Assembly (NCBI GenBank): GCA_041666185.1 | Contig: JBAYHL010000004.1 | Span: 105 to 64,104 of the forward strand | Direction of reading: 5' to 3' | DNA: 64,000 bases | DNA from: Patescibacteria group bacterium | GTDB taxonomy: Bacteria > Patescibacteriota > UBA1384 > UBA12157 > JAENIV01 | Part shown: one piece after another, positions 5,057 to 23,469 of the stretch | Position numbering within the stretch: position 1 is the first letter of the stretch | Layout of the letters: the number at the start of each line of letters is the position of its first letter | Notes under the pieces: generated by a model | Told to the model about the DNA's origin: nothing | The model's database searches: none | Seen by the model: the letters and a program-made list of their open reading frames with translations, nothing else | Made by a program: the position numbers and the translations under genes

Positions 5057-6067
5057 CTATCTACCAATAGTAACATTAACATTTTTTACATTTTCGCCCG
5101 GGACTAAATCAACTGTTGTCGAGCCTCCGGGAAAAACTAAAACACTGGCAGTAATTTTATGCTTTCCTTCACGAACATTGGGAATAGTATAATCACCAGT
5201 AATACTAGAAACCCCTACCGTTCGATCGTCAAGAGAAATTGTTGCTGGTACTAAAAGTGGATAGTTGCCAGCCATTTGGACTTTTCCAGTAATTGAACCT
5301 GCTAAATTAGAAGGTAACGGTTCCATAGCAATATCTAGCTTTGTCGCAGAAAAGCAAGCCAAGGAAACCGAAAAACTTGAATCTTGATAGCCACGAGACT
5401 TGGCAGTAATCGTATGAGAACCAAAAGGTACAATCCAAGAATAACTGCCGTTCGCATTAGGCGAACCTACACCATCAACATCAGTTGCAACTGAAAGAAT
5501 TTTCTGTGAACTTGTTTTGTCTAAAATAGAACCGCTAATTTCCGCCCCATACCACTCAAAATGCATCGCATCACGTTCACCAGGCCAATCACCTCCCCAA
5601 GCAAAACCATATTTTTTAAAGATATCTATAACAACTTGTGGAATATCTGTTTGTGACGGTCCGTAGTTTCCCGGTTGATAAGGATTGGCTTCAGGATTTA
5701 TATCAATAGCAATTCCCCATGAATGTAAAGATTTACCCCCACCACCTACCTTAGAACGATTATTATATGTCTGAATGTTGGTAAAATTATAACCAGTTTT
5801 TGCGTCATTAACATCTTTTTGGATATGATCTAAGTATGGTGCGACAAGTTTATTTATAAGGACTTCGTTGCCAAATAAATTATAACTTTCTAAATTAGTC
5901 CCTGGTTTACCAAAAAAACTCGAAATATCTCTCGAGTTTTGACACCCAATAACCGCTTCGGCGCCAGTTTTGATAATACCTGCAGCACGCAGATATAAGT
6001 AGACACCAAAGCTTACACCAACAAATAGGATAATTATTAAAATTATAACTCTGGTTTTAATTGCCAT
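5057..6067 (-). CDS. Membrane-anchored peptidase M15 (VanY / D-Ala-D-Ala carboxypeptidase-like) with a C-terminal carboxypeptidase-regulatory-like beta-sandwich
   Basis: N-terminal TM helix. Zn-binding motifs HSWGIAIDINP and AWGGDWPGERDAMHFEW. Confidence 0.8.
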   Translation of the reverse strand: MAIKTRVIILIIILFVGVSFGVYLYLRAAGIIKTGAEAVIGCQNSRDISSFFGKPGTNLESYNLFGNEVLINKLVAPYLDHIQKDVNDAKTGYNFTNIQTYNNRSKVGGGGKSLHSWGIAIDINPEANPYQPGNYGPSQTDIPQVVIDIFKKYGFAWGGDWPGERDAMHFEWYGAEISGSILDKTSSQKILSVATDVDGVGSPNANGSYSWIVPFGSHTITAKSRGYQDSSFSVSLACFSATKLDIAMEPLPSNLAGSITGKVQMAGNYPLLVPATISLDDRTVGVSSITGDYTIPNVREGKHKITASVLVFPGGSTTVDLVPGENVKNVNVTIGR

Positions 6068-6123
6068 AAACAGCTCTTTTTTATTGTACTAAATTTTTTA
6101 CAAAAGAGCTAATTATATTAAAC

Positions 6124-9100
6124 TTAATTATTTAATATTTCTCTTGTCTTTGGCCCAACTCGTCCAGCCCCACCTTGCGAAGTATCAATATTGTGATAAT
6201 TCTGATACTCAATCACCGCTTTTTGAGTTATGAAACCAAAATATCCTGTAACATAACGAGAGTCAAGAAACCCTTCACTTACTAGTCTTTCCTGAAGTTT
6301 AGTAACATAATAGCCAGAACTTTCAATGTCTAAATCATAAGGAAAATATACTTTATTAGAATCATCACAAGTTCCCTCAATAGCACAATTTGGGATTATT
6401 CCGTTTTCAATATCTTCATTTAAGGCTGCTCTTGTTCTTGGACCAAAGAAACCAGCTCCCCAATCCCACCAACTGGCAACTATTGCTTTTGACTTCTGAT
6501 ATAGGAATACTGCTTGTTTAGTAATACTGCCATAGAAACCAGTAGAATCTACCCAAAATGGAAAATAACCAAGATATCTTAAAACATTTTGCAAAATTCG
6601 AACATTTGCTTGGTTGTCCCCAGAAAAATAAGGCGCTTGATCGTTATTAAAACGAAATGAAGATTGTTGACCACTTTCTTGAGAAGAAGGACTAGTACTA
6701 GGAATTGGGGTAGGCGTAGGTTTTGAAGACTTACTACCATGACCTTGAGACAATGTTGTTTCTGAGCTAGATGGAGAAACTGCTGTTTCAATATTGTTGC
6801 CATTCCTAGCTTTAACTCTGTAAGCATAAGTTGTTGAGTGGACTAACCCAGTATTAGTTATACCAGTTGCTTCACCCCAAGTAGCGTAATCTTGCCAAAC
6901 GGCGGTATCACCATTACTACCATCAGCTTGGACATATTTACCTAAAGCTTCATTGGAAATAGCAAATTGAGTTGCTGCTGAATTGCCATTAACATTAATA
7001 ATTACCTTAAGCGAAGTGCTTGAAGATCGATTTACTGTTGACGCTAAAGGCACGTTAGCCAAAGTATAAGTTGAAGCGGCTGTACCAGAATGAGGAGATT
7101 GACCGGAATCATTATAAGAAACAACATAACGACCAGAATACTCCGTATTAACCGAAAGTCCAACCTCGTCACAAGAAGTTAAATCAACTCCTACACAAGT
7201 TGCCTTTAAAGTGTCTGTCGCATCATATACTTTAAAACCTACTTCATTTGGATTTACGTCAGTAAATTTCCAACGAATAGCAGCTACTGAAATTGCTTCT
7301 GGTGTGCCAATCGTTGGTGCATCTGGTGGGAAAAAATTCCAACCAGGATTATTGTTACCCGAATCAGTAACGTTATCTCCCGGGGTAATTCTAAAAGCAT
7401 TGTTTATATTTTGACTATCGGAAACATCAATATAATCGCCAGAAATCATATCGCCAGAAATAACAAAATACCAAGCCGTATCTGGCACTGAGCTACGAAG
7501 AGCCAAAACATTCCCAACAGAACCGTCTAAAGTCCATGTATCATTTATGGTCTGAGTTGCCCCCGCGGCAAAAGTAATAGTTTTAGCCCCATCAACTGAA
7601 GTATCCATAATTAAATTGTTGAAAGTCGTTGAGCCAGAAATTGCCGCAGCGTTGGTCGAATCAAAAGTAATAGTTTGTGTTCCAGGAGTTGTTCCAGCAG
7701 TAAATGAACCACCAGAAATATTCCAATTTTTAGCCATATTTATATTCAACCCATCAGCATTAAATACGCCATCTGAATTAGTAAAATTACCATCGATATT
7801 CAAAGCATTGGTAGAAAGTTGTAATGTGCCAGCGCCAGAGTGAGTTAAATTGTTGAATAACTTACCAATGCCTGTGCCACCCGAATCAAGAGTTTGAGTA
7901 CCAGAGGATTTAGTAAAATCCACTATGCCACTACCCGGAGTAAAAGTACCAGAATTTATCCAATTACCACCAACATTTATCGTACCGGAAGTAGCAAAGA
8001 GTATAGTATTTAAATTAATTGTTATATCACCATTTACTGTTAAAATATTTGAAGAAATATCTAGAGTATTAGGACCAATCGACAAAACATAAAGCGAAAG
8101 ATTGCCTTCCGCTACTGTTGTACCGGATAGACTATAAGTTACGCTCTGTTCTTCTGCTAGAGCAGCGGAGTTGTATAAATTTATATTATGATAAATATCA
8201 TTGGGTAAAATATTTGAACCGTAGGCATAATAAGCAAATGTTGCATTATTAGTCGTCCAGTCAACTGTACCACCATTATGAGTATAACTACCAAAAACTG
8301 AAAAACTTCCTACATTAACCTGACCACTGCCAGCTGTAAAAGTTCCATTTGTTACATTAAAAATTTTTCCAACGATCGAACCACTCCCACCAATCAAAAC
8401 TCCACCATTTATAGTAATAGTAGTCGCTGAAGATAGTATGGAAGCGCTGCCAAGACTAACTGTTCCTGTATTTAATGTGCCAGCGGTAACATTTAAATTC
8501 CTAATAGTAGTTAAATTACTAGTATTTAGAGTCCAACCACCACCAGCACCATTAACAGTTAAAGTATAGAAACCAGAAGCACCGCCATTGATTGTTTTCC
8601 CTGTTGCGCCGCCATCTAAAGTAACAGTTCTTGTTTCTTTATCAAAAGTCGCCGTGTTGCTCCATGACCCCGCAACGGTCATATCGCGACTATTAACATC
8701 AAAAGTACCAGCAGAGTTAGTGAAGTCACCATCAATGTTTATGTTATTAGTCAAAAGCTGCAAAATTCCAGCACCAGAGTGAGTAATGTTATTAAAAATT
8801 TTCCCTACGCCCGTACCACCAGAATCAAGAGTTTGAGTACCAGAGGATTTGGTAAAATTAACAGTAGAAGAACCAGAAACAAAAACACCACCAGCAGCAT
8901 TTGACCAATTACCACCGACTGCAATAGTAGACAATGAATCGCTTGCATCAAGAGTTCCATTAATGGTTACATTTACTGCTGTTAGATTATAATCAATTGT
9001 TGAAGGTCGTAGATCTAAAGTTGCATTAGCATTAACAGTCAAGTTGCCAGACATGGCTTTAGTGCCTGTAAGATTTCCTGTTAATGAGTAAGTTGTTGGA

Positions 9101-11529
9101 GTGGTTGGAGCAACAGTCAGGTTGTTGTAAGCATAAGTAATAATGTTTGTACTAGAACCAGTTCCCGTATAAGTGAAAGTTGAGTTAGTGCCTTTATTGA
9201 AAATAGCCACTGATATAGGACTTCCAGTTCCAGTTAAATTTAAATTATAACCACCACTTCCCATGTTAAAACTATAAACCATAACTCGGGTTGCTGTAAT
9301 ACTTGAGCCCAAAGTAATTGTAGCTAATCCAGAATCTAATGTTCCCAAATCATCAGCATTTGAAGAAGAATCTGTCAGAGTCGTTGTGCCATCAAAGTAA
9401 AATAAGCCAGAACCCCTTATAAATATAGCAGTACCGGTATTATTCCAGTGTCCGGCAAAATTCATGTTCAAATTATTGGAATCGAAAGTGCCAGCCGAGT
9501 TGGTAAAAATGCCATTAACATCAAGATTATTGGTTATAAGCTGAAGCGTTCCAGTTCCAGAATGAGTAAGATTATTAAAAAATTTTCCAGCATCTACACC
9601 ACCAGAGCTTAAGGTTTGAGTGCTAGAAGCTTTATTGAAAATAACTGTTGAAGTGTTAGCGGTGAAAGTACCTGAATTAGCCCAGTTTCCAGTACAGGTA
9701 ATAGTTGAAGCATTTGCTGTCAAAGTTCCAGCAATAGTAACGTTGCCAGTAACCGTAATATTTCTATTAGTCGTTCCATCATTAGTTGTTAGGGTGCCAG
9801 CGGTCACATCTAAATCACCATTAACCGTGGTTGTAGCAGTGGCTGGTAATCTGAATGTGCCACCCGTACCATTAATTTTTAAATTATAATATGTCCAATT
9901 TCTAATGTTTCTTGTACCAGAAGTGGCAGAATACTCAACCGTGCCGTGAGCTGTGTCATTTGTTAAGCTGACAGTTGTTTCGTCACCAGTTTGTTTTAAT
10001 GTGCCATTATTAGTAAAAACACCCGTAACAGTAAGATTGTGACCATTAATGTCTAATGTTTTACTTGCTCCTATAGTTAAAGTACCAGAAGCAGTAATAT
10101 CTGCTCCGGCAGTTAAACTTGTGCCATTCAAATTCATGACAGTGGATGTTGTTATTGTATTAGCACCTTGAGTAATGGCACCTATGTAAGCAGCTTGAAA
10201 ATCAAGCGTTGCAACATCAATAGCAGTATCAATTGTTAACGCGCCATTGTGAGCGCTGCCGGCATTGTCAAAAATGGCTGTATCTCCGGCTACTGGCACT
10301 GTTGCGCCACCCGTACCGCCAGATGTATCTGACCAGTTAGCAGTATCATTCCAATTGCCGCTTGTGTTATTAATCCAGTAGCGAGTAGCTGGGCCAGAAG
10401 AAGTTGCTATGCTATTGTCGAAATAAACATTGTAAGGACTAGCAGCACCGTTAGTCCAAGAAAGAAAAGCTTTGCTACCAGTCGTTTGATAACTTGCAGA
10501 AGGGCTAACATTGGTTCCTGTTCCATAAAGAGATGTGGCGGCGGCATCCCAATTGGCTAAAGCATAAGGAGAAACACCTTTTTTGTAATATATTGTATTC
10601 GTGTTTGCATAAAAAGCGTAAAGATCGCCAGACGCTGTATCTATAGTAATTGAAGGATGGGTAGCACTACCAGATTGAATTGTTACAGCACTCGACCATG
10701 TCCCGGAATATTTTGTGTAATAGATTGAACCGGAAGAAAGATATTCTAAATGAATATTGCCCGATGCATCTGATACTAAAGAATAGTCTGTGGTCGCGGT
10801 GCTGACCACAGTAGTTGCAGAAGCATCCCAACTAGAGCTAGCATTAGTATATTTTTTCCCAGCTAAAGTAGTTCCGCTAACCCAGGCTGCATATATATCT
10901 CCTCCTGTAAGAGGAACAATATTAACGCTAGTAAGGTCTGTGCTAAGAGTGTTAATAGCATCCCAAGCAGTTATGTCATTAACATTCGTTGATCTTCTGG
11001 CAAAAATTCCACTTGCTCCATAACCACCATCATCATAAGGCCAAGCCACCCATATTTTGTTGTTTGTATCCTGAGTAATAACGGGAGCACCAGTAATCGA
11101 ATATGCACCACTTGCTGTCACGGGAGAACCCCATGTAATAGAGGTAGCAGCGGCAGTGCCTTGTCTGACATTAAGAACGATCCCATTTGATGTTGCAAGA
11201 TATACAGTTGTGCCGTTGGCCCAAATTGAAAAATCAGAAGTATTTTCAGCAATTGTGCCTGTTCCATTCCATGTCACTCCATCAGTTGAGTATTTGTAAG
11301 CAATAGCCGAGCCATTATAATAAAACGACCAATAGGTAGAATTCGTGCTGTCATAAAAGCTCTTTCTATATTCGGCTCCAGTGGTGGCACTAGCGCTAGT
11401 TGATGTTCCAATCGTTACTGGCGCTGCGTAAGCAGTTTCATAAGGAGGACCAAAAATACCATAAACTATGGTAAATAATAAAAAAATTAGTAGAAAAAAT
11501 TTATAAATATTGCGTACCGGAATTATCAC
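6124..11529 (-). CDS. Giant (1801 aa) cell-wall-associated surface protein: Asp-box/BNR N-terminal region, long Thr/Ser/Asn/Gly-rich beta-helix-like repeats, FN3-like modules, two C-terminal peptidoglycan-binding domains
   Basis: Signal/TM at the N-terminus. The Asp-box motif is YSTDGVTW. A ~70-aa unit (FTKSSGTQTLDSGGTG.GK.FNN.THSGAG.LQL..N.) occurs three times. The C-terminus has PG_binding_1-like ...LQERLVSEGFLDSRYVTGYFGFITQKAVIEYQ and VLRYLGYFP...GSITKQAVFLYQ. It has a GTG start with an AAGGAGG RBS, ~80 nt downstream of 5S. Confidence 0.85.
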   Translation of the reverse strand: MIIPVRNIYKFFLLIFLLFTIVYGIFGPPYETAYAAPVTIGTSTSASATTGAEYRKSFYDSTNSTYWSFYYNGSAIAYKYSTDGVTWNGTGTIAENTSDFSIWANGTTVYLATSNGIVLNVRQGTAAATSITWGSPVTASGAYSITGAPVITQDTNNKIWVAWPYDDGGYGASGIFARRSTNVNDITAWDAINTLSTDLTSVNIVPLTGGDIYAAWVSGTTLAGKKYTNASSSWDASATTVVSTATTDYSLVSDASGNIHLEYLSSGSIYYTKYSGTWSSAVTIQSGSATHPSITIDTASGDLYAFYANTNTIYYKKGVSPYALANWDAAATSLYGTGTNVSPSASYQTTGSKAFLSWTNGAASPYNVYFDNSIATSSGPATRYWINNTSGNWNDTANWSDTSGGTGGATVPVAGDTAIFDNAGSAHNGALTIDTAIDVATLDFQAAYIGAITQGANTITTSTVMNLNGTSLTAGADITASGTLTIGASKTLDINGHNLTVTGVFTNNGTLKQTGDETTVSLTNDTAHGTVEYSATSGTRNIRNWTYYNLKINGTGGTFRLPATATTTVNGDLDVTAGTLTTNDGTTNRNITVTGNVTIAGTLTANASTITCTGNWANSGTFTANTSTVIFNKASSTQTLSSGGVDAGKFFNNLTHSGTGTLQLITNNLDVNGIFTNSAGTFDSNNLNMNFAGHWNNTGTAIFIRGSGLFYFDGTTTLTDSSSNADDLGTLDSGLATITLGSSITATRVMVYSFNMGSGGYNLNLTGTGSPISVAIFNKGTNSTFTYTGTGSSTNIITYAYNNLTVAPTTPTTYSLTGNLTGTKAMSGNLTVNANATLDLRPSTIDYNLTAVNVTINGTLDASDSLSTIAVGGNWSNAAGGVFVSGSSTVNFTKSSGTQTLDSGGTGVGKIFNNITHSGAGILQLLTNNINIDGDFTNSAGTFDVNSRDMTVAGSWSNTATFDKETRTVTLDGGATGKTINGGASGFYTLTVNGAGGGWTLNTSNLTTIRNLNVTAGTLNTGTVSLGSASILSSATTITINGGVLIGGSGSIVGKIFNVTNGTFTAGSGQVNVGSFSVFGSYTHNGGTVDWTTNNATFAYYAYGSNILPNDIYHNINLYNSAALAEEQSVTYSLSGTTVAEGNLSLYVLSIGPNTLDISSNILTVNGDITINLNTILFATSGTINVGGNWINSGTFTPGSGIVDFTKSSGTQTLDSGGTGIGKLFNNLTHSGAGTLQLSTNALNIDGNFTNSDGVFNADGLNINMAKNWNISGGSFTAGTTPGTQTITFDSTNAAAISGSTTFNNLIMDTSVDGAKTITFAAGATQTINDTWTLDGSVGNVLALRSSVPDTAWYFVISGDMISGDYIDVSDSQNINNAFRITPGDNVTDSGNNNPGWNFFPPDAPTIGTPEAISVAAIRWKFTDVNPNEVGFKVYDATDTLKATCVGVDLTSCDEVGLSVNTEYSGRYVVSYNDSGQSPHSGTAASTYTLANVPLASTVNRSSSTSLKVIINVNGNSAATQFAISNEALGKYVQADGSNGDTAVWQDYATWGEATGITNTGLVHSTTYAYRVKARNGNNIETAVSPSSSETTLSQGHGSKSSKPTPTPIPSTSPSSQESGQQSSFRFNNDQAPYFSGDNQANVRILQNVLRYLGYFPFWVDSTGFYGSITKQAVFLYQKSKAIVASWWDWGAGFFGPRTRAALNEDIENGIIPNCAIEGTCDDSNKVYFPYDLDIESSGYYVTKLQERLVSEGFLDSRYVTGYFGFITQKAVIEYQNYHNIDTSQGGAGRVGPKTREILNN
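7700..9640 (-). repeat. Three intragenic coding repeats (~210 nt each, at ~7700-7925, ~8650-8860 and ~9430-9640) inside the giant surface-protein gene
   Basis: A 29-nt stretch gaatcaagagtttgagtaccagaggattt is identical at 7883-7911 and 8822-8850. The third copy, at 9604-9633, has diverged. The antisense ORFs at 7616-7843 and 8588-8782 both end in ...SC.(I/V)PAPE, mirroring the repeat. Confidence 0.8.
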
Positions 11530-11621
11530 AACCTCCTTTTTTCGTCTCTTACATTATACAAAAAATTTACAGATATTACTAACCTAGGAAATATAAGTAC
11601 TAAAAAATCCCTCGTAAGCTA

Positions 11622-11743
11622 AGTGCTGGCGTCGATCTACTTTCCCGGGACCTTGCGGTCCGAGTATCATCGACGCTATGGTGCTTAACTTCTCTGTTCG
11701 GAATGGAAAGAGGTGTACCCACCACGCTAAAACACCAGCACTT
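11622..11743 (-). rRNA. rrf: 5S ribosomal RNA
   Basis: The reverse complement reads AGUGCUGGUG...CCGAACAGAGAAGUUAAGC...CGCCAGCACU, with helix I ends pairing and the conserved CCGAAC...GAAGUUAAGC loop. Confidence 0.85.
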
Positions 11744-11865
11744 AAATTGCGAAGGATTATATTAACTTACAACTTACAATCACCAACTACAACAAGTTGT
11801 AGATTGTTTGTTGTGAATTATTAGTTATTTTTCATCAGTACCTTAGTAGTTGTTTCGTCAAAAAA

Positions 11866-14780
<2,915 letters not shown>

Positions 14781-14893
14781 CAACTACCAAGGCACTGATG
14801 ATTCTGTTGTTAAAGTAGCCAGATTACTGGATAATCGGATGAATAGAGCAATCTCTAATCCTCTGATTATCTAACAACCTTTATTTATGATGT

Positions 14894-14918
14894 TAAAAAA
14901 ACCGCCTTGACGGCGGAC
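14894..14918 (-). terminator. Rho-independent terminator downstream of the pilin-LTD gene
   Basis: The minus strand reads CCGCCGUCAAGGCGG followed by UUUUUUU. Confidence 0.6.
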
Positions 14919-15052
14919 AAAACACAAAGTTAGCTTAAAAAAGCTTACGTTGTTAGCCGCGCGCCCCCTCTCCTAGATTGTCTTTTCCATACATCAGTTT
15001 TAACTCCTTTTTGATTTTAACAAGACCTTTGATTATTGTCAATAGTTTTCTA

Positions 15053-16213
15053 TTAAAAAGAACCTGGATTTGGACTTGCGTCATCGACAAAGCCACTGGT
15101 TGCACTAGTTCTAGCCAATGAATGGCCTTCAGCAACATCGGCTAAATGAGGAAGGGGTGTTGCAGTTGTTCCCCAGCTTAATTGATCAACTACCTGATCA
15201 TATGGATTCTTCAATTCAAGAGAGTCGCCATTGTTGTTTAAAAAAAAAGCGCTTGCTACGAAAATTTTTGCGTCAGGATATCCTGGCCATTTAGCAATAA
15301 ACCCCACTCCTGTAGTAGGTATTATCATAGCGAACTCATGAGACCCAATAGTAGTTGTGCGACCAGCAGCTTTTTCGAGTCCGGCTATATTGCCTACAGA
15401 TCCATAGAGGGAAGAAATTTTCCATCCATCCATATCAACAGATCCAGACGTTGGGTTGTAAAGTTCAATCCATTCAAAACTTTGTTCCATACCATCATTC
15501 CCCCCTGGTCCATAACTTCCTGACGGACCTTTGTCTGGGGCAACATCGTAATAAACCTCAGAAATTATCACATTCCCACCATTACTAATTGCTGGGGGAG
15601 GAGGATCTGACGGCTTCCATGTAGAGGCATCTAAACTATAAACTTCATACATTTTTGACGAAACACCAGTAGACGGCATTACTCCGCCATCATTAATCAT
15701 TAGTTCGTTTCCTTCTTCCAACCGTGCCATCAATTTGTAACCTGAACCATTAGAACCGTAATAATAGGCATAGGTTTCTGTTGTGCCCGCTTCATCACTA
15801 TAAGCTTTACCTTGAAGAGGATCTTGTGGTAAAGGTGATAAATAAACTTTTAAAATATTATGAAGCGAATTAGCGTTGTCAGTAAACCAAGAACGCACAG
15901 TCGCTGACGAATCACAACTTGCCTCGCATGTATTACTACTTAAAACCCAACTTGAACCAGTGCTTGGATAAGTACCTTTTTCATTTTTATATGTCTCTAG
16001 CGCTCCACGAATTGCATCCAAATTAGTAACTCTTTTACTGTCACGACTTTTTCTTCTGGCAGGAGCAAGACTAGTAATTACAAGACCAGCAACAACCACA
16101 ACAATCATTACCACTACTAAGAGTTCTATTAAGGTAAACCCCGACACCAATCGATGATTGGTTGTGGGGGTAAAACTACGTTTTTTTTGCTTAAGATATT
16201 TTTCTTGTCGCAT
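15053..16213 (-). CDS. Type IV pilin / pseudopilin with a C-terminal lamin-tail domain (LTD)
   Basis: Class III (prepilin) signal: basic leader then G|FTLIELLVVV. The C-terminus has LTD motifs VIISEVYYD, EWIELYNPT..VDMDGWKI and NNGDSLELKNPYDQVVDQLSWG. Confidence 0.85.
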   Translation of the reverse strand: MRQEKYLKQKKRSFTPTTNHRLVSGFTLIELLVVVMIVVVVAGLVITSLAPARRKSRDSKRVTNLDAIRGALETYKNEKGTYPSTGSSWVLSSNTCEASCDSSATVRSWFTDNANSLHNILKVYLSPLPQDPLQGKAYSDEAGTTETYAYYYGSNGSGYKLMARLEEGNELMINDGGVMPSTGVSSKMYEVYSLDASTWKPSDPPPPAISNGGNVIISEVYYDVAPDKGPSGSYGPGGNDGMEQSFEWIELYNPTSGSVDMDGWKISSLYGSVGNIAGLEKAAGRTTTIGSHEFAMIIPTTGVGFIAKWPGYPDAKIFVASAFFLNNNGDSLELKNPYDQVVDQLSWGTTATPLPHLADVAEGHSLARTSATSGFVDDASPNPGSF

Positions 16214-16327
16214 TTTTCCCCATTTATATTTATATCTTAAACTTTTTATTTTTTTTAATCAATAAAAAAATGGAGAAAAATTACTTTTAGCAAAAATTTC
16301 TCCATTTTTTCTCTGTTACTTAACAGA

Positions 16328-17020
16328 CTATTTTAATTCTTTACGAATTTTTTCCAAAATGTCTTGGGCCACGTCTTTACCGCCCAAACCAAAAGCAAGT
16401 CCACCAGCAATTGCCAAGAAAGCTACCAAACCAATAAACATGGTTCTAATAAGCGCTTCGGCAATACCTAGTTGGACCAAAACAGCCAAGAATGTGAAAA
16501 CAATAATTGCATAACGGACAATTGCTGCAATTGCGTCTGACATGGCAAAATCAGCTGCCGCCATGGCACCTTTAATCACATTTGACAAGAAATGAGCTAA
16601 AACTAACCCAATAAGCAAAATGGCACCAGCAGCAACAGCTGTTGGGACATAAGCAAGAATCTTGTCTAAGAATAATGCGACATCAGGCAATTTTAAGGTA
16701 TTAGCAGCCGCAATAAAGACAACTAGATAAATTATCCATTTAGCTACTGACGACAATAAAGCTGTTGTGTCTTTATCAATATTGCCTTTTTTCAAAACAT
16801 CTTCGACTTTAGCTTTTTCAAACAAGGTTTGTAAACCAATAATTCGAAAAAGTCGGTCGATAACAATCGCAACAATTATACCAATAAGCCAACCAATAAC
16901 TAAAATGATAATTGCGCCAATAAGATTAGGCAAGAAATTTACAAAACGATCCCAAATTGCTGTCCAACTGTCGGTTACCGCAGTTGTCCAATCTTGTAAA
17001 ACCATTTTTTCCTCTTTCAA
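16328..17020 (-). CDS. Polytopic membrane protein with MscS-associated 'TM-helix' type repeats (function unknown)
   Basis: 230 aa with repeated hydrophobic segments and short K/E-rich termini. Family assignment is weak. Confidence 0.5.
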   Translation of the reverse strand: MKEEKMVLQDWTTAVTDSWTAIWDRFVNFLPNLIGAIIILVIGWLIGIIVAIVIDRLFRIIGLQTLFEKAKVEDVLKKGNIDKDTTALLSSVAKWIIYLVVFIAAANTLKLPDVALFLDKILAYVPTAVAAGAILLIGLVLAHFLSNVIKGAMAAADFAMSDAIAAIVRYAIIVFTFLAVLVQLGIAEALIRTMFIGLVAFLAIAGGLAFGLGGKDVAQDILEKIRKELK

Positions 17021-17216
17021 AAATTAGAACTAAACTCTCGGATAGCTCGACCTCACTTTCTACCTTAATTAGATATTAAATTAAGGTAGCTCTATCCACA
17101 CTCAAGATATTTCAGATTTGAATATAATTCAAGAAGTTTGTCAAGAGCAAGGAGTATTTTAAAAGGGATGTATTAATACATCCCTTGTTTGTTTGTATAC
17201 CTTATGTTGTAGCAAT

Positions 17217-17795
17217 TTACTTGACAAAAACCCTATTCACCGCATCCCATATTCGGACAATACCAGGATGAGCCTGGACACCTAGTAACTTTTGTCTGTT
17301 AAACAATACTATTCCTTTTTCCGGATAATATTCGCTCGCTCGCAAATGATTTTGAGCGAAAGCCAATTCTTGCGGCGTCATTTCGAAAGCAAAAGTGTCT
17401 GCGAAAACATGCATTGAATATCCACCGACACCATCGGACCAAAGATATTGCTGAATATCACTAGAAGCGAAAAGTCTTCTTAGCCTTTCGACACCAATCA
17501 AAAGGCCCGTGTCATCTTCAAAGTGACGACGAGCGGTTTCCAGCAAAGACTCTCCAGGATTCATACTGCCACCATAAACCCACCATTCATTTTTAGCGGG
17601 CTTTATGCATCTTTTGGCTAAGCAGAGATTGATCTGACGCGTTGGCCGATCATACATCCAAGGCACAACATCACAGCAATGGTAAACAAGTCTCGATACT
17701 GCTCGAGGATATTCTTCGTCAGTTAGTCTAACTTTTGACGGTTGATAACCGTTTTCTACAAAAACACTGCCACCAATAGCTCTGTATTTTTCCAC
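17217..17795 (-). CDS. NUDIX-family hydrolase
   Basis: It has a Nudix-box-like GGSMNPGESLLETARRHFEDDTGL. GC is visibly higher (~45%) than the flanking DNA. Confidence 0.7.
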   Translation of the reverse strand: MEKYRAIGGSVFVENGYQPSKVRLTDEEYPRAVSRLVYHCCDVVPWMYDRPTRQINLCLAKRCIKPAKNEWWVYGGSMNPGESLLETARRHFEDDTGLLIGVERLRRLFASSDIQQYLWSDGVGGYSMHVFADTFAFEMTPQELAFAQNHLRASEYYPEKGIVLFNRQKLLGVQAHPGIVRIWDAVNRVFVK

Positions 17796-17884
17796 AACAA
17801 GGTAACCTCCTCTTTTAACTATTAGAACATGTTACTATACCATAAAAACCCCTTTTCGTCAAGGATTTTAGAGAAGTTGCAACC

Positions 17885-17912
17885 TTGACATTTTGGCAAT
17901 AACAAGTATATT
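17885..17912 (+). promoter_or_regulatory. Sigma70-like promoter for the C-type lectin gene
   Basis: TTGACA (17885-17890), a 16-nt spacer, then TATATT (17907-17912). An AGGAG RBS lies 8 nt before the ATG at 17945. Confidence 0.45.
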
Positions 17913-17944
17913 AGAATAAGTTCTTTAACAGATAGGAGACGAAC

Positions 17945-18694
17945 ATGAAAAAAGTTTTGTTTACCGCTCTTGCTTGCACAGTGTTTTCTCTGCCAAGCAA
18001 TATTTATGCTAGTAGTCATTCTTGGGTATTGTGCCCTCTTAATGGTCACTACTATTCCAAAACAGTTTCACCAGTAATGACATGGAATGAAGCAGAAACT
18101 GAAGCAATAAGTGTTGGTGGTCATTTAGCTACTATTCGCAATACAGCAGAAGAAGAATGGATACTCAAAACTTTTCCGCCAGAAAGACTCTGGATAGGGT
18201 TGACAGATTCAGTCTCGGAAGGTAATTGGTTATGGACTAGTGGTGAACCGGTTACTTACACCAATTGGTCAGCTGGCCATCCTAATAATTCTTCCGAAAA
18301 CCAAGATTTTGCTACAATTTGGGGATCACCACCAACATATCCCGCATACTGGGAATCGCGTTCTGGATACGAAAGAACATCTGGAATAATAGAGATAACA
18401 TCTCTACCGCTGCAAATTGTAAATCTTTTTGGTACAATTTATCAAAAAGATTTACAAGAGCAAGTCATTACAGCACCAGATGTCTTTATAGACATCCTGG
18501 ATGTGAATAGAGAACATTTTGTAGTGTCTGGCAAAACTGATGGTAACGGCAAATTCACTATTCTTGCTGATAACTGGCAAGATAGTACATATATCATTCG
18601 GATAAGAAAAACTGGTTACAAAACAAAAGAAGTAGGGGCTACTCTAAAGAATAGTTCCTCAACACCCTTTTCGACAACATTGGAAACAGAATAA
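17945..18694 (+). CDS. Secreted C-type lectin domain (CTLD) protein with a C-terminal carboxypeptidase-regulatory-like beta-sandwich
   Basis: Signal peptide. CTLD hallmarks are WNEAE..A...GGHLATI, WIGLTD, EGNWLWTSGEPVTYTNW, GHPNN and QDFATI. One of very few plus-strand genes here, and GC is slightly elevated. Confidence 0.85.
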   Translation: MKKVLFTALACTVFSLPSNIYASSHSWVLCPLNGHYYSKTVSPVMTWNEAETEAISVGGHLATIRNTAEEEWILKTFPPERLWIGLTDSVSEGNWLWTSGEPVTYTNWSAGHPNNSSENQDFATIWGSPPTYPAYWESRSGYERTSGIIEITSLPLQIVNLFGTIYQKDLQEQVITAPDVFIDILDVNREHFVVSGKTDGNGKFTILADNWQDSTYIIRIRKTGYKTKEVGATLKNSSSTPFSTTLETE

Positions 18695-18713
18695 ATAGAC
18701 AGATCCTTACTTT

Positions 18714-18751
18714 GGTCAATCAGAGATAACTTCAAGATTGACCTTTTTTAT
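18714..18751 (+). terminator. Bidirectional rho-independent terminator between the lectin gene (+) and the receiver gene (-)
   Basis: GGTCAATC...GATTGACC hairpin followed by TTTTTTA. Confidence 0.6.
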
Positions 18752-18766
18752 TCTTAAAATATTTTT

Positions 18767-19186
18767 TTACTCTAAATACTGTCTAATTTTGTCTACCACT
18801 TGATTTGGCGTAAGATTTGCTTTCACTAAATAGTCGTCGGCACCAAGTTTTCTTGCCATATTAATATCTGTAGCATCACCAAGATTAGAAAAAACGATAA
18901 CTGGTTTTTTGGAAGCTGGCCATCCAGAAGAACGAAGCTGTTTTAAAACATCAAGGCCATTAATTTTCGGAAGTATCAGATCAAGTAAAATCAGATCGTA
19001 ATCAATGGATCCTAATTTTTGAATTGCCTCCAAACCATCGAAAGCACTATCCATTTCAAAACCTTCCATAGCTAGCTTGTCCTGATAGGCTCTGACTAAC
19101 ATTCTATCATCTTCGATGAAAATAATTTTTTTTCTTGTTTGCTGAAATTGACCAGACTGATCTCCATTGTTTTGATTGTTTGTCAT
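18767..19186 (-). CDS. Stand-alone response-regulator receiver (CheY-like) protein
   Basis: 139 aa with the acidic pocket DD and phospho-acceptor D (LILLDLILP), T/S (VIVFSN) and K (LVK) signatures, and no output domain. Confidence 0.9.
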   Translation of the reverse strand: MTNNQNNGDQSGQFQQTRKKIIFIEDDRMLVRAYQDKLAMEGFEMDSAFDGLEAIQKLGSIDYDLILLDLILPKINGLDVLKQLRSSGWPASKKPVIVFSNLGDATDINMARKLGADDYLVKANLTPNQVVDKIRQYLE

Positions 19187-19206
19187 ATTCCCTCCATTTT
19201 TATTTT

Positions 19207-22200
19207 TTACATATCTTTTTCTTTATTAATTTTTAAAATTGGCAATGAAAAGTAAAATGTACTACCTTTACCAAGCTCTGCCTCGACCCAAATTTTACCT
19301 CCACAACCTTCTATAATTTTTCGAGCAATATATAAACCCAAACCAAGTCCCGTTCCTTTACCAAGAGGTATTTTCTTACCATCACTAACCTGGGCATATT
19401 TTTGGAATAGTTCTTTTTGTCGATCTTTAGCTATTCCTATACCCGTGTCCTTTATTGCCACAATAACTGAGTTCTCTTTAGCTAAAACTTCTAAGCTAAT
19501 TGAACCTTTGTCAGTATATTTAATAGCATTATCAAGTAAATTAACAATGGCCTCAGGAATTTTTTCACAATCTGCCATAACTTTAGGTATTTTTGTTGGT
19601 ATTTTATAATTAAATTTTAAACCTTTTTTTTCTATCAATGGTTTTGTTTGCTTAACTATATAACCTAAGATTGGCACTAAATCAATCAATTTAGGAACAA
19701 TAGTAATTTTCCCTTTTTCTATTCGAGACATAGTTAGAAAATCATTAATTATGTTTATTAAATTCGTATTGGCCCTACTAACATCTTCTAAAGGCACTTT
19801 TAACTTAGGAGGAATTTCACCATAGTCACCATCTAGTATCATTTCTGTATTGGCTCTTATAACAGACACGGGAGTTCGTAAATCGTGGGTTGCCATATTT
19901 AAAAAGTCATCTTTAGCCTGTTCCATTCTATTTCGCTCAGTAACGTCACGAAAGCTACCCAGAAGATACATTTTTCTATTAACAATCAACCGCGATATAT
20001 TTATATCAGCATAAAAAATACTACCGTCTTTTCTTAACACCGGAAGGTTTGAAACAAGTTTAAGTTTTCCTTTTACCTGTTCTCTAAATATTTTTTTAAC
20101 AAATGGTGCATCTTTTTTAGGATGAATATCGTCAACCCCTAAATCCAACAATTCTTTTTTTGTATATCTTAGCATATTACATATTGCTGTATTACACGTA
20201 CTAAATTTACTAGTTTCCGGATCAGCAACTAGTAAACCATCTTTAGAATCTTCAAATATAGTTTCGAATTTTATTTCTGATTCTTTTAATTTTTGTTCAA
20301 TTTTTCCATGTTCAACACGAACACGTTGTGAGGTAACACCAAAAGCAAGATCGTCCACTAATTCCTTCAATAGCTTAATTTCATCCAGAGCAAATGTATT
20401 TGATTTAATCGAATAAATACCAATTACACCAAATACTTTATCATCGCCAACAAGTGGTAAAGCAATAATTGACTTATAACCTCGTTTTAAAGCATCTTCC
20501 TTCCATGGGGACATAGTTGGATCTGTAGCAATATCGTGTACAATACTAGGATTGCCTGTACGAATAGCTATCCCTCCTGGCCCGCGACCACGCTCAGTAT
20601 CTGCCCATGTTAACTTGGCTTTTTTAATGTAGCCTGATTCGAGTCCAGCATGAGCTATAGGAAGTATGGTTTTTGCTTCATCATGTTTGACATAACCAAC
20701 CCACGCTAAGCGGTAACCACCAGTTTCAACAATAATACGACACGCCTCACTCAATAAGTCTATTTCGTCTGTAACATGAATTAGCATCTGATTAATTTCA
20801 CCCACCATCCGTAACGCACGGTTTAGTTTTATAAGGTTTACTTCCGCAAGTTTGGCCTCAGTAATATCCCAAGTAAGATCAGCGAAAAAGGAGACTAATT
20901 TAACATCCTGCTCGTCATAATTGCTCGATTTATTTCCAACACCTAGCACAGCCATAATTTTATCACCACGGATCACTGGTACTACTAATTCGCGAACTAC
21001 TTTTGCATGACCTTTTGGCATACCTTTTTTATTCAAAAGAGACTCATAATCATTGTGAATAACCGGCTTGCGCTGATAAACACAATCTACCCAAACACCA
21101 GCTTTTTCTATTGCATAATGTGATCCTTTGCCTTCAGCTTTGCAAAATTCTTTTTTTGTTCTAGTTGACCAATTTTGCAATGTTAGCGTTTTTTGATCGG
21201 AATTTACAAAATGGAAAAAACCAATAAGACTACCTGTGAGTTTTTCTATTTCGTTTAGTGCCTCTTCCAACAGCTCATCCATAGAGTGACTATTGGCAAA
21301 CACTAAAAGACGGGCACGAGCTTTAAGAATATTTTCTGTCTGTTTGCGCTCGGTAATATCTCTAATAATCGCCATGATCGCCGGTTTATCTTTATAAATA
21401 ATCCTGGAAGAATTCACTTCAACCGGTAGCTTATTTCCAGTTTTTGATAAAATTTCTATTTCATATCTATTTGGCGCGTCTTGACCCTTTAATCTTTTTT
21501 CGTACCTTTCCGCGACAATTTTTTTATACTCGGGAGACAAAAAATCTAGAAATGATTTTCCAATACTTTCCTCTTTTGTAAAACCTGTCATTTGGCAAAT
21601 TACTGAGTTTACGTACTCAAGCACACCTGCACCCTGTATAACTAAAATGCCATCGTTTCCTTTTTCTACCAAAGTTGAGTATTTTAGTTCGGAAGCTTTT
21701 AACTCCTCTTCTGTCTGTTTGCGCTTGGTAATATCACGAATATTGCATTGAATTATTAATTCCCCATCTGTCCTATAAGCATTGGCAATAAATTCAACTT
21801 CAATTTTTTTTCCATTTTTAGTTTCTAATAGTAAATTATTGAAATGAACATGTTTTTTGGCTTGCAAGGCAAGAAAATGCTTTTTCGACATAATAATGTC
21901 TTTAAAAACACCAATTTCCCAAAGATGTTTTTTTTGAAAATCAGCTTTAGAGTAGTTAAGTAAATTAATTAAAAACGGATTAACGTCTTTAATTATTCCT
22001 GTCTTAAAATCGACCAAAAGTATACCGTCTTGAGCCGTTTCAAATAACCGACGATAACGCAACTCTGATGTTTCTAGCTTGTCTTGTTCCTTTTTTTTGC
22101 GGTAAGTAATATCTTCAATAGCTAAAAGTATTATTTTCGGCTTTTTTGGCGGTCGAGGTATGCGTCGAGCATTCAATAACATCGCTTTTGGCCCAATGGT

Positions 22201-22542: not shown

Positions 22543-22639
22543 ATTACCCCCTCACCTATTTTATTAATTTTTAGTTATATTAGCTTAAAAAACTAATGCT
22601 TGTTTGTTTTTGTTTTTTACAAATTACATTTTTATTATA

Positions 22640-22667
22640 TCAAAAAAACTACAATTGTTGTAGTTTC
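22640..22667 (-). terminator. Rho-independent terminator between the tRNA-Ala islet and the sensor-kinase gene
   Basis: A perfect 9-bp stem, aaactacaa / ttgtagttt, followed on the minus strand by UUUUUUU. Confidence 0.5.
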
Positions 22668-22687
22668 AAATACATTATGGTGGACCT

Positions 22688-22700
22688 GAGGCTAAAAACT
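22688..22700 (-). repeat. 13-bp direct repeat of the tRNA-Ala 3' end (partner at 23361-23373)
   Basis: tggtggacctgag is identical at both sites. The flanks are partly similar (ttggaacccc versus ttgaacctcc). Confidence 0.7.
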
Positions 22701-22886
22701 TGGAACCCCTTCTTCGAGTATATATTCGAATGGTATCCAATACTAAAAGAAATATACGAACCTTAATAAGTTTCCACTAATCAACTCCAAAGAATTAGTA
22801 TCAAAAAAACTGTCACAACACTAGGAAGTGACAGTCAATAGAGATATATCGAATCTCCACCGGTTAAAAGCACTCGATGCTTGAAG

Positions 22887-23213
22887 TTATTGCAACAGCC
22901 CTTCTTTGAGAGTCGTCTCCACAACAACTCTATCAGCCATTGTCTTGACGGGCTGTCGATCTGTGCCCACTTGCCAGTTTAGATGCATTCCTCCCTCTGT
23001 CGCCTGAGTGACAAAACCATCTCCATTGGGGTGAACAACGACATCATTATGCCCCTTCTTCTTGAAAGTTATTCTCAATTTTTGATTCCTATGAAACTGG
23101 TGACATAGACTCAACACTAGATCCTGAGCGGCATGTAACCCTTGGACCTTCGATACCCTTAGCACAAACTTCATTAGCGTCTCACCTCCCTTATCCTGCA
23201 CATTATATAACAA
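22887..23213 (-). CDS. Hypothetical protein (108 aa) inside the tRNA-Ala-associated GC-rich islet
   Basis: Open frame with ~48-50% GC against ~35% background and no recognisable family. The start may be the internal MKFVLRV. Confidence 0.4.
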   Translation of the reverse strand: MLYNVQDKGGETLMKFVLRVSKVQGLHAAQDLVLSLCHQFHRNQKLRITFKKKGHNDVVVHPNGDGFVTQATEGGMHLNWQVGTDRQPVKTMADRVVVETTLKEGLLQ

Positions 23214-23435: not shown

Positions 23436-23469
23436 ATGATGATAAGTTTTAAGAAAAGAAATACAAGTT

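What the first reader, a model, noticed from the sequence alone, without database searches (positions are those of the whole stretch)
6124..11760. Giant 1801-aa cell-wall-anchored surface protein encoded immediately downstream of 5S rRNA on the same strand
The ORF starts ~80 nt after the 5S 3' end with an AAGGAGG RBS and a GTG start. No terminator is evident between 5S and the gene. Its domain order is signal/TM, an Asp-box (YSTDGVTW) sialidase-like beta-propeller, ~1000 aa of Thr/Asn/Gly-rich beta-helix repeats, FN3-like modules and two peptidoglycan-binding domains at the extreme C-terminus. The PG-binding domains are at the C-terminus and the putative glycan-binding propeller is at the N-terminus. 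This reads as a wall-tethered fibre with an adhesive tip. Possible co-transcription with the rRNA would make it very highly expressed. An M15 peptidoglycan peptidase gene follows.
Basis: partly seen in the sequence, partly recalled or inferred. Interest (0 to 1): 0.65.

Follow-up and report, generated by a model that had tools for sequence, protein, structure and literature searches.

The report
Wall-binding surface fibre gene beside 5S rRNA
An intact 1801-residue secreted protein of an uncultured ultra-small (Patescibacteria) bacterium is built like a long surface fibre, with a cell-wall-binding foot and a propeller-shaped head; it is an ordinary kind of bacterial surface protein, and its position next to a ribosomal RNA gene looks incidental.

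Summary
The ORF is real. It lies on the minus strand at 6124-11529 (1801 aa, GTG start), 94 nt downstream of a 5S rRNA gene (11624-11739). An identical protein is deposited at NCBI as 'MAG: peptidoglycan-binding protein [Patescibacteria group bacterium]'.

- Residues 1-35 are a Sec signal peptide.
- Residues 36-377 model as a seven-bladed beta-propeller, not a six-bladed sialidase. It carries one non-canonical Asp-box-like motif and has no Pfam, NCBIfam or PHROG hit. Its best fold matches are GH145/PL42 enzymes, Photorhabdus lectins and phage structural proteins.
- Residues 378-1400 are a beta-solenoid of about 1000 aa, modelled confidently over about half its length.
- Two FN3-like modules follow, scoring below the Pfam threshold.
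- A Pro/Ser/Thr linker leads to two PG_binding_1 domains.

There is no LPXTG motif, so any wall attachment is non-covalent. DNA repeats inside the gene are at most 70% identical, which makes assembly collapse unlikely.

The rRNA link has no positive support. About 90% of genes in the window share that strand. Terminator-like sites are not enriched anywhere in the region scanned. None of three homologues sits near rRNA.

Verdict: a new member of a known kind, a giant surface fibre or adhesin-like protein. Interest is low to moderate.

The parts
11624..11739 (-). 5S rRNA gene, immediately upstream of the ORF on the same strand
   Evidence: Rfam RF00001, 88.9 bits, full length 1-120
11863..14768 (-). 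23S rRNA gene. It is preceded by the best promoter-like site of the region (TTGACA-17-TAAAAT with TG) at 15042-15014.
   Evidence: Rfam RF02541, 2395 bits; promoter scan
11530..11623 (-). 94-nt AT-rich gap between the 5S gene and the ORF. It holds a T6 run just after 5S, a perfect TATAAT at 11553-11558 with only a 3/6 -35 match, GGAGG at 11532-11536, and two in-frame stops.
   Evidence: Read from the sequence; no terminator-like site; unstructured RNA; upstream stops
6124..11529 (-). Whole ORF, 1801 aa plus stop codon, GTG start
   Evidence: identical NCBI protein MFA6492891.1
11425..11529 (-). aa 1-35: Sec-type signal peptide (MIIPVRNIYK, then a hydrophobic core, then AYA|AP). It is the only hydrophobic segment of the protein.
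   Evidence: Kyte-Doolittle scan. An AxA|A motif directly before the conserved domain start recurs in homologues P0002, P0005, P0006 and P0022. Cleavage is inferred.
10399..11424 (-). aa 36-377: seven-bladed beta-propeller head domain with one Asp-box-like motif (STDGVTW, aa 81-87). It belongs to a family not described in Pfam, NCBIfam or PHROGs.
   Evidence: AF2 pLDDT 84.5, pTM 0.87, 27 strands of 3 or more residues. Foldseek against PDB and the viral library BFVD. 519 cluster representatives at E<=1e-3. No Pfam hit at E<=10. Conservation analysis.
7330..10398 (-). aa 378-1400: Thr/Asn/Gly-rich beta-solenoid shaft. It has a conserved N-cap (RYWINNTSGNWNDTANW), three large internal repeats (about 541-770, 795-1028 and 1135-1327) and a conserved C-terminal cap ending in DSGNNNPGWNF.
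   Evidence: Self-comparison. AF2 shows only short strands; pLDDT is 80-95 for model residues 40-330 and 780-1020 and below 50 for 336-450 and 697-752. Only weak PDB matches, nearly all beta-helix proteins. Homologues share the caps.
6757..7329 (-). aa 1401-1591: two FN3-like modules
   Evidence: Pfam fn3 E=1.4e-4, 22.5 bits, below the gathering score of 25, two stretches. The region is 44% identical to repeated modules of P0003, which carry a precomputed PF00041 hit. The same pair follows the propeller directly in P0052.
6658..6756 (-). aa 1592-1624: Pro/Ser/Thr-rich linker
   Evidence: Read from the translation
6127..6657 (-). aa 1625-1801: two PG_binding_1 domains (about 1637-1704 and 1741-1799), the inferred non-covalent peptidoglycan anchor
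   Evidence: Pfam PF01471, E=1.2e-16, 61 bits, two stretches. Weak match (E=0.18, not significant) to the 207-aa ErfK/YbiS/YcfS/YnhG family protein 4lpq. No LPXTG near the C-terminus.
5057..6067 (-). Downstream gene: membrane-anchored Peptidase_M15_4 (VanY-like) plus CarboxypepD_reg domain. CofD/YvcK-like, GlmS, Fpg and NTP-transferase genes follow.
   Evidence: Pfam

Best explanation
The gene encodes a secreted surface fibre of a Patescibacteria (CPR) cell.

Proposed mechanism:
- After Sec export and probable signal-peptidase cleavage at AYA|AP, the two C-terminal PG_binding_1 domains hold the protein non-covalently on the cell's own peptidoglycan.
- A Pro/Ser/Thr linker, two FN3-like spacers and a beta-solenoid shaft of about 1000 residues project an N-terminal seven-bladed beta-propeller away from the wall. 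The shaft has about 42 coils, giving roughly 20 nm.
- The propeller is most likely a carbohydrate- or surface-recognition head that mediates attachment to a partner cell, host cell or substrate.

Shown: ORF integrity; the N-terminal hydrophobic signal-like segment; the propeller fold (confident model); the beta-solenoid character (partly confident model); the PG_binding_1 domains.

Inferred: signal-peptide cleavage; polarity (foot at the C-terminus, head distal); glycan binding; the adhesion role.

The position behind the 5S gene is probably an accident of gene order in a genome whose rRNA genes are dispersed among protein genes.
For: - Intact 1801-aa ORF with homologues.
- The only hydrophobic segment is N-terminal. 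AxA|A precedes the conserved first strand in four homologues.
- Propeller model: pLDDT 84.5, pTM 0.87, 27 strands of 3 or more residues.
- Best PDB fold matches are seven-bladed GH145/PL42 enzymes, Photorhabdus fucose-binding lectins and a PL25 lyase (TM 0.60-0.75).
- Best viral matches are phage structural and tail-fibre proteins.
- A stand-alone family member sits in a phage tail module.
- Family members carry the propeller on many different stalks, which is modular use typical of a recognition head.
- The shaft model contains only short beta strands and matches only beta-helix adhesins, S-layer proteins and lyases, weakly.
- PG_binding_1 x2 is above the Pfam threshold.
- Relatives P0051, P0004, P0006, P0014 and P0025 end in a TM helix plus basic tail instead, which puts the C-terminus next to the cell.
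- Neighbouring genes are envelope-related: M15 peptidase, YvcK/CofD-like, GlmS, NTP-transferase.
- Cultivated Patescibacteria are episymbionts with predicted surface adhesins (PMC11665869).
Against: - There is no experimental or expression evidence.
- The ligand of the propeller is unknown.
- About 45% of the shaft is modelled with low confidence, and its fold search gave no significant hit (best E = 0.03).
- Signal-peptide cleavage is inferred only.
- Conserved R55, R122, D154, H260, Y271 and Y304 could form a catalytic pocket rather than a binding pocket.
- PG_binding_1 could bind another cell's wall rather than the cell's own.
Confidence: 0.55

Rival explanations
1. Wall-tethered enzyme. 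The propeller is a catalytic polysaccharide lyase or glycosidase of the PL42/GH145-PL24-PL25 type, held on a stalk to degrade a host, prey or environmental glycan rather than merely to bind it.
For: - The top PDB fold matches are GH145/PL42 proteins (5mum, 5mvh, 5muk) and the PL25 ulvan lyase 5uas.
- These families use Arg, His and Tyr residues in the anterior pocket (PMC8377490).
- The propeller family conserves R55 (93%), R122 (69%), H260 (73%), Y271 (80%) and Y304 (83%).
- The adjacent gene is a peptidoglycan peptidase.
Against: - No hit to BNR_4 (PF15892) or any other Pfam family even at E<=10.
- No sequence-profile hit to any solved structure; only spurious antibody matches.
- The lectins match at equal or higher TM (0.70-0.75).
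- The inactive GH145 members 5mum and 5mvh are themselves the best hits.
Confidence: 0.2
2. Reversed polarity. The N-terminal hydrophobic segment is an uncleaved signal anchor in the CPR membrane, and the C-terminal PG_binding_1 pair is the distal tip that grips the peptidoglycan of a host cell.
For: - PG_binding_1 domains are at the extreme C-terminus.
- The next gene is an M15 peptidoglycan peptidase.
- Patescibacteria have an episymbiotic lifestyle.
- In the phage-encoded relative P0046 the propeller is N-terminal, the end that is usually virion-proximal in tail fibres (my own knowledge).
Against: - The AxA|A motif is conserved immediately before the first propeller strand in P0002, P0005, P0006 and P0022.
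- Relatives have C-terminal TM anchors.
- A propeller pressed against the membrane would have no evident role.
Confidence: 0.12
3. The gene is a distal member of the 23S-5S transcription unit, and read-through from the rRNA promoter is a functional way to express it at very high level.
For: - Same strand and a 94-nt gap, with no terminator-like hairpin detected.
- A strong promoter-like site lies upstream of the 23S gene.
Against: - Terminator-like sites are not enriched anywhere in the scanned region (11 against 7.6 +/- 3.4 expected), so their absence is uninformative.
- A T6 run follows the 5S gene, and a perfect TATAAT lies 23 nt before the start codon.
- About 90% of ORFs in the window are on this strand.
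- The adjacency is not conserved in homologues.
- rRNA precursors are processed at the 5S 3' end (my own knowledge).
Confidence: 0.1
4. The long ORF is an assembly artefact of collapsed or chimeric repeats.
For: The gene comes from a metagenome-assembled genome, and its protein is internally repetitive.
Against: - The longest DNA repeat is 199 nt at only 62-70% identity.
- There is no frameshift over 5.4 kb of a window with about 36-37% G+C.
- Homologues of 2100-2700 aa have the same module order.
- The identical sequence is held by NCBI/ENA and by JGI/IMG.
Confidence: 0.03

Closest known systems
Giant beta-helix surface fibres and adhesins (for example EtpA and FHA-type TPS exoproteins, autotransporter passengers, Caldicellulosiruptor tapirins, RTX ice/diatom adhesins) and the large repeat proteins of Omnitrophota and Patescibacteria
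   Same: Long beta-solenoid shaft, Ig/FN3-like spacers, and a ligand-recognition module at one end with a cell-attachment module at the other. Sequence homologues of the shaft and its caps occur in 1400-3100-aa proteins of Patescibacteria and Omnitrophica. The weak fold matches are to EtpA, Hbp, HMW1, RsaA and tapirin.
   Different: No TPS, autotransporter or type I secretion signals, as expected for a cell without an outer membrane. Anchoring is by PG_binding_1. No significant structural or Pfam match of the shaft to any of these families. At 1801 aa it is far below the Omnitrophota 'giant genes' discussed in 10.1101/2023.11.21.568195.
GH145/PL42 (Pfam BNR_4) and PL24/PL25 seven-bladed beta-propeller glycan-active enzymes
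   Same: Seven-bladed propeller. Foldseek E = 3e-12 to 1e-8, TM 0.60-0.70. An Asp-box-type motif in one blade (PMC8377490).
   Different: 12-14% identity to the GH145 chains and 8% to PL25, with no BNR_4 hit. The motif is SxDGxTW rather than SxDxGxTW. The catalytic constellation was not verified. The domain here is fused to a fibre and a wall anchor.
Photorhabdus PLL/PHL seven-bladed propeller lectins
   Same: Highest TM-scores (0.70-0.75) over the whole domain, similar size (about 340 aa), and a non-enzymatic sugar-binding function that fits a fibre tip.
   Different: 12-16% identity and no detectable sequence relationship. The PLL/PHL binding-site repeats were not examined.
   Same: Beta-propeller with an Asp-box-like loop. 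Sialidases appear in the fold list.
   Different: Sialidases are six-bladed and match at TM of only about 0.45-0.52. No BNR or BNR_2 Pfam hit, no FRIP motif, one degenerate Asp-box only.
PG_binding_1-containing wall proteins (for example the M15 Zn D-Ala-D-Ala carboxypeptidase of Streptomyces albus, L,D-transpeptidases)
   Same: The same three-helix PG-binding module, in tandem and above the Pfam threshold. Weak match (E=0.18, not significant) to the ErfK/YbiS/YcfS/YnhG family protein 4lpq.
   Different: Here the module is attached to a 1600-aa non-enzymatic fibre rather than to a hydrolase. The M15 enzyme is a separate neighbouring gene.

Membership tests
Sialidase / BNR (GH33) | Six-bladed beta-propeller | tested here: not met
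   The model has 27 strands of 3 or more residues, about 7 blades. Sialidase chains align at TM 0.44-0.52, against 0.67-0.75 for seven-bladed proteins.
Sialidase / BNR (GH33) | Several canonical Asp-boxes (SxDxGxTW) and a match to Pfam BNR/BNR_2 | tested here: not met
   The strict regular expression finds none. One SxDGxTW motif lies at aa 81-87. No Pfam hit for aa 36-377 at E<=10.
Sialidase / BNR (GH33) | FRIP motif, Arg triad and Tyr/Glu nucleophile pair | tested here: inconclusive
   There is no RIP motif. A conserved QRK (R55 93%) sits at the analogous N-terminal position. The 3-D arrangement could not be inspected.
GH145 / PL42 (Pfam BNR_4, PF15892) | Seven-bladed beta-propeller fold | tested here: met
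   5mum, 5mvh and 5muk at E = 3e-12 to 1.6e-10, TM 0.67-0.70.
GH145 / PL42 (Pfam BNR_4, PF15892) | Sequence membership (BNR_4 profile) | tested here: not met
   No Pfam family at E<=10. No PDB profile hit.
GH145 / PL42 (Pfam BNR_4, PF15892) | Anterior-pocket Arg neutraliser, His base/acid and Tyr (PMC8377490) | tested here: inconclusive
   R55, R122, H260, Y271 and Y304 are conserved in 69-93% of 108 domain copies. Their spatial clustering was not testable here.
PLL/PHL propeller lectins | Seven-bladed propeller of about 340 aa | tested here: met
   TM 0.70-0.75, rmsd 3.2-3.5 A for the best chains.
PLL/PHL propeller lectins | Detectable sequence homology and inter-blade sugar sites | tested here: not met
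   12-16% identity. No sequence-profile hit. The binding sites were not examined.
PG_binding_1 (PF01471) | Profile match above the gathering score | tested here: met
   51.5 bits in the whole protein and 61 bits on the segment, against a cut-off of 23; two stretches.
PG_binding_1 (PF01471) | Actual binding to peptidoglycan | not testable with these tools
   Needs a pull-down with purified sacculi.
Fibronectin type III (PF00041) | Profile match above the gathering score | tested here: inconclusive
   22.5 bits against a cut-off of 25, E=1.4e-4, two stretches. Homologous modules in P0003 carry a precomputed PF00041 hit.
Parallel beta-helix / beta-solenoid surface proteins | Solenoid of short beta strands over the repeat region | tested here: met
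   DSSP shows only 3-10-residue strands and one 4-residue helix. pLDDT is 80-95 over model residues 40-330 and 780-1020 but below 50 over about 23% of residues. The weak matches are nearly all beta-helix proteins.
Parallel beta-helix / beta-solenoid surface proteins | Membership of a named family (Beta_helix/PbH1, PATR, TPS, autotransporter) | tested here: not met
   No such Pfam or NCBIfam hit in this protein. The best Foldseek E-value is 0.03.
Covalently wall-anchored (sortase/LPXTG) proteins | C-terminal LPXTG, hydrophobic stretch and basic tail | tested here: not met
   The only LPxTx-like string is internal (aa 561). The C-terminus is ...GPKTREILNN, with no hydrophobic segment.
rRNA operon (co-transcribed member) | Conserved linkage to 5S/23S in relatives | tested here: not met
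   Loci L001, L002, L004 and L005 of homologues contain no Rfam rRNA hit.
rRNA operon (co-transcribed member) | Continuous transcript from 5S into the ORF | not testable with these tools
   No transcriptome data are available.

The most novel reading that the evidence does not exclude
The N-terminal seven-bladed propeller represents an undescribed, widespread recognition-domain family. It has 519 cluster representatives and no Pfam, NCBIfam or PHROG model. It is shared by giant surface proteins of Patescibacteria and Omnitrophota and by phage tail modules, and it would serve as the partner-cell or host-glycan recognition head that ultra-small episymbiotic bacteria use for attachment. In this genome it would also be driven by read-through from the 23S-5S promoter.
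Probability: 0.25. Interest if true: 0.55.

Novelty: new member of a known kind. Interest (0 to 1): 0.27.

Why it matters
How Patescibacteria/CPR cells recognise and hold on to their hosts is largely unknown, and large surface proteins are prime candidates. This gene gives a clean, complete example with a testable layout: a PG-binding foot, a shaft of about 20 nm and a propeller head. It also draws attention to an unannotated propeller family that occurs in phage tail modules too. Beyond that it is an ordinary giant surface protein. The eye-catching position next to the 5S rRNA gene has no support as a functional feature.

Tried and rejected
- A whole-protein self-BLAST reported only the self-hit. 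Windowed queries then showed the repeats.
- The repeat finder refuses minus-strand regions, so it was rerun on the plus strand.
- NCBIfam gave nothing for the giant protein.
- PHROGs gave nothing for the propeller.
- The PDB sequence search with the whole protein and with the propeller profile gave only spurious antibody or marginal hits.
- The search for related loci with alignment A1 failed because no stretch was conserved enough. With the single propeller sequence it found no relative in the GTDB representative genomes, so taxonomic spread and wider synteny could not be surveyed that way.
- My first reading of the gap as containing an extended -10 promoter was wrong. TG abuts TATAAT directly, without the TGnTATAAT spacing, so the pattern search does not list it. 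It is only a perfect -10 hexamer with a 3/6 -35 match.
- Sialidase membership was considered and rejected (see Membership tests).
- A covalent sortase anchor was considered and rejected.
- A longer upstream ORF carrying the 'WYYKWH' leader seen in homologues was considered and rejected, because there are in-frame stops in the gap.
Full report
**The observation**

The window carries an uninterrupted ORF on the minus strand at 6124-11529, of 1801 codons with a GTG start. Rfam finds a complete 5S rRNA at 11624-11739 and a 23S rRNA at 11863-14768, both on the minus strand. The ORF therefore begins 94 nt after the 5S 3' end, not about 80 nt.

The gap reads ...GCCAGCAC-TTAGCTTACGAGGGATTTTTTAG...TTTTTTGTATAATGTAAGAGACGAAAAAAGGAGGTT-GTG. 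GGAGG (11532-11536) is only 2 nt from the GTG. In-frame ATA and ATT codons 3 and 6 nt further on would have more usual spacing, but the N-terminus would change by at most two residues. Two in-frame stops in the gap exclude a longer ORF.

The consensus scan lists no terminator-like hairpin in the gap, and the gap RNA folds worse than its shuffles (z = +2.2).

The gene is not a collapsed-repeat artefact as far as sequence can show. The longest direct DNA repeat is 199 nt at 62-70% identity, although the protein has three large repeats at 46-58% identity. An identical protein is deposited as MFA6492891.1, 'MAG: peptidoglycan-binding protein [Patescibacteria group bacterium]', on a 64.8-kb contig.

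**Anatomy: signal peptide and head domain**

Residues 1-35 are the only hydrophobic stretch of the protein and end in AYA|AP. The same AxA|A junction precedes the conserved 'AP.TVGTSTS' strand in homologues P0002, P0005, P0006 and P0022. I therefore infer a cleaved Sec signal peptide.

Residues 36-377 were modelled with an eight-sequence alignment. The model has pLDDT 84.5 and pTM 0.87 and is all-beta, with 27 strands of 3 or more residues, which corresponds to a seven-bladed propeller.

Foldseek against the PDB gives three groups of seven-bladed matches:
- GH145/PL42 proteins (5mum, 5mvh, 5muk; E down to 3e-12, TM 0.67-0.70).
- Photorhabdus lectins PLL and PHL (TM 0.70-0.75).
- PL25 ulvan lyase (5uas).

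Sialidases appear only at TM of about 0.45-0.52. In the viral structure library the best matches are Bacillus phage G Gp425 and Gp424 (TM 0.74-0.76) and assorted tail-fibre and structural proteins.

At the sequence level the domain hits nothing:
- No Pfam family even at E<=10.
- No NCBIfam model.
- No PHROG family.
- No solved structure.

The family is nevertheless large. It has 519 cluster representatives at E<=1e-3 and 285 at E<=1e-10 among 1.8 billion representatives.

It is SxDGxTW, one residue shorter than the canonical SxDxGxTW, and it is the only such motif. It is conserved in the family: S81 93%, G84 87%, W87 96%.

Most conserved positions are one Trp per blade, which looks structural. 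The conserved polar positions are R55 (93%), K56 (85%), D154 (87%), R122 (69%), H260 (73%), Y271 (80%) and Y304 (83%).

**Anatomy: shaft, spacers and foot**

Residues 378-1400 are 45-58% Thr+Ser+Asn+Gly, with very few charged residues. The region starts with a conserved 'RYW..(N)W.D..NWS..SGG.GGA.VP..GD.A.FD' cap. It ends with a conserved '...TFNNL...DGAKTI.F.AG.TQTI...W.L.G..G..L.LRS....W.F......DY.DV.DS.N......DSGNN.GW.F' cap. Both caps recur in 1400-3100-aa proteins from Patescibacteria, Omnitrophica and others.

An AF2 model of aa 378-1420 with a 31-row fragment alignment has mean pLDDT 69. Two long stretches, model residues 40-330 and 780-1020, score 80-95. Two stretches, 336-450 and 697-752, score below 50. 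The secondary structure consists only of 3-10-residue strands.

Foldseek finds no significant PDB match (best E = 0.03). Nearly all of the 43 weak matches are beta-helix or beta-solenoid proteins, including RsaA, EtpA, VacA, Hbp, the HMW1 and FHA TPS domains, PL6 lyases, antifreeze proteins and tapirin.

From 35 strands in 286 confident residues I estimate about 24.5 aa per three-strand coil. That gives about 42 coils and roughly 20 nm for the shaft (the 0.48 nm rise per coil is textbook knowledge).

Residues 1401-1591 are two FN3-like modules:
- Pfam fn3 scores E = 1.4e-4 at 22.5 bits, below the cut-off of 25.
- The region is 44% identical to repeated modules of P0003, which carry PF00041.
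- The same pair follows the propeller directly in P0052.

A Pro/Ser/Thr linker (aa 1592-1624) leads to two PG_binding_1 domains, at 61 bits against a cut-off of 23. There is no C-terminal LPXTG, hydrophobic stretch or basic tail. 'Cell-wall-anchored' can therefore only mean non-covalent binding.

**Context**

The next genes downstream on the same strand are envelope-related:
- Peptidase_M15_4 with a CarboxypepD_reg domain (5057-6067).
- A CofD/YvcK-family protein.
- GlmS, Fpg and a sugar-phosphate nucleotidyltransferase.

Upstream, the rRNA genes are dispersed. The 16S gene (25165-26619) is separated from the 23S gene by 10.4 kb. That interval holds tRNA-Ile, tRNA-Ala and nine protein ORFs, including a PAS/GAF histidine kinase, a response regulator, NUDIX, a mechanosensitive-channel protein, a pilin-like N_methyl+LTD protein and a C-type lectin on the plus strand. 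Unlinked rRNA genes are a described feature of many bacteria, including this group (10.1101/705046).

**The rRNA link**

Nothing positive supports functional co-transcription:
1. Nearly all credible ORFs of the window are on the minus strand, so same-strand placement is the default.
2. Terminator-like sites are not enriched in the 10.5 kb scanned (11 found, 7.6 +/- 3.4 expected). The absence of one in a 94-nt gap is therefore uninformative for this genome.
3. A T6 run follows the 5S gene, and a perfect TATAAT (11553-11558) lies 23 nt before the GTG.
4. The -35 match for that TATAAT is only 3/6. It is not a proper TGnTATAAT extended -10, so the pattern search does not list it. Three of the four true TGnTATAAT sites in the window do sit just upstream of genes, including the 16S gene.
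5. The three homologues whose contigs I fetched (P0002, P0005, P0022) have no rRNA gene nearby.

Read-through remains possible but is undecidable from sequence.

**Mechanism**

The best-supported reading is a secreted fibre. The PG_binding_1 pair holds it on the cell's own wall, and the linker, FN3 pair and beta-solenoid project the propeller some 30-40 nm outward as a recognition head.

Polarity is inferred from two observations:
- The signal-peptidase-type junction before the propeller is conserved.
- Relatives P0051, P0004, P0006, P0014 and P0025 replace the PG-binding end by a C-terminal TM helix with a basic tail.

A binding role for the head is suggested by three observations:
- The fold matches to lectins and phage fibre proteins.
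- The modular reuse of the propeller on many different stalks.
- A stand-alone family member located after HK97-gp10-like and YqbQ-like tail genes in a phage-like contig.

A catalytic (PL42/PL25-like) head and a reversed polarity, with PG-binding domains gripping a host wall, are not excluded.

**Comparison and novelty**

By design this is a familiar kind of object: a large beta-helical surface fibre or adhesin with Ig-like spacers, a wall-binding module and a ligand head. It is not a member of the sialidase/BNR, BNR_4, TPS, autotransporter or LPXTG families by the tests I could run. Only PG_binding_1 membership is established, and FN3 is borderline.

The undescribed element is the propeller family. 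I rate the finding a new member of a known kind, of low to moderate interest. The rRNA adjacency is most probably incidental.

Noticed in passing
window 14769-25164: The rRNA genes are unlinked. The 16S gene (25165-26619) and the 23S gene (11863-14768) are 10.4 kb apart on the same strand. tRNA-Ile and tRNA-Ala are each flanked by small ORFs. Nine protein genes lie in between, including a PAS/GAF histidine kinase, a response regulator, NUDIX, a mechanosensitive-channel protein and a PsbP-like protein.
   Followed up: partly
window 15053-16213 (-) and 17945-18694 (+): Just upstream of the 23S gene lies a pilin-like protein with an N-terminal methylation motif and a Lamin Tail Domain. One of the few plus-strand genes encodes a C-type lectin domain with a CarboxypepD_reg-like tail. 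These are further candidate surface or attachment proteins in the same neighbourhood.
   Followed up: no
window 27189-27197, 22634-22642, 29080-29088 (all -): Three of the four TGnTATAAT extended -10 motifs in the window lie in intergenic DNA just upstream of genes: the 16S rRNA, the histidine kinase, and the ORF starting at 29045. The total count (4) is no higher than chance (3.7 expected), but the placement suggests that this promoter type is used.
   Followed up: no
window 6068-6123: The 56-nt spacer between the giant ORF's stop codon and the M15 peptidase start contains a 9-bp inverted repeat, AGCTCTTTT...AAAAGAGCT. On the minus strand no U-run follows it. It could be a processing or attenuation hairpin.
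   Followed up: no
homologues P0002, P0005, P0006 (N-termini; L001 6318-, L002 8001-): These relatives carry a conserved cytoplasmic leader of about 40-100 aa, 'P[IL]H..[LF]R....WYY.WH[LI]', before the signal-peptide core. It recalls the specialised signal-peptide extensions of Gram-positive surface proteins. The window's protein lacks it and cannot be extended upstream.
   Followed up: partly
propeller-family members P0057, P0058, P0062, P0068, P0073, P0076, P0090, P0126 (C-termini): Many 500-850-aa members combine the propeller with Cys-containing FN3-like repeats. They end in a conserved C-terminal motif, roughly '(V/I).I.GG..I.GGT.I', that matches no family I know. It may be a lineage-specific sorting or anchoring signal.
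   Followed up: no
L003 3696-5405 (protein P0046): A stand-alone propeller followed by 'SDSVGLSDAVLRNK'-type repeats (PHROG 12240, unknown function). It sits after HK97-gp10-like and YqbQ-like genes, that is, in a phage tail module, where a receptor-binding protein is expected.
   Followed up: partly
homologues P0006 and P0022: In these two proteins the propeller is split by an insertion of about 200-700 aa made of repeats of the type 'Y(V/A)GG.F...GG', which look Kelch-like or like a second propeller. This would be a domain-in-domain arrangement.
   Followed up: no
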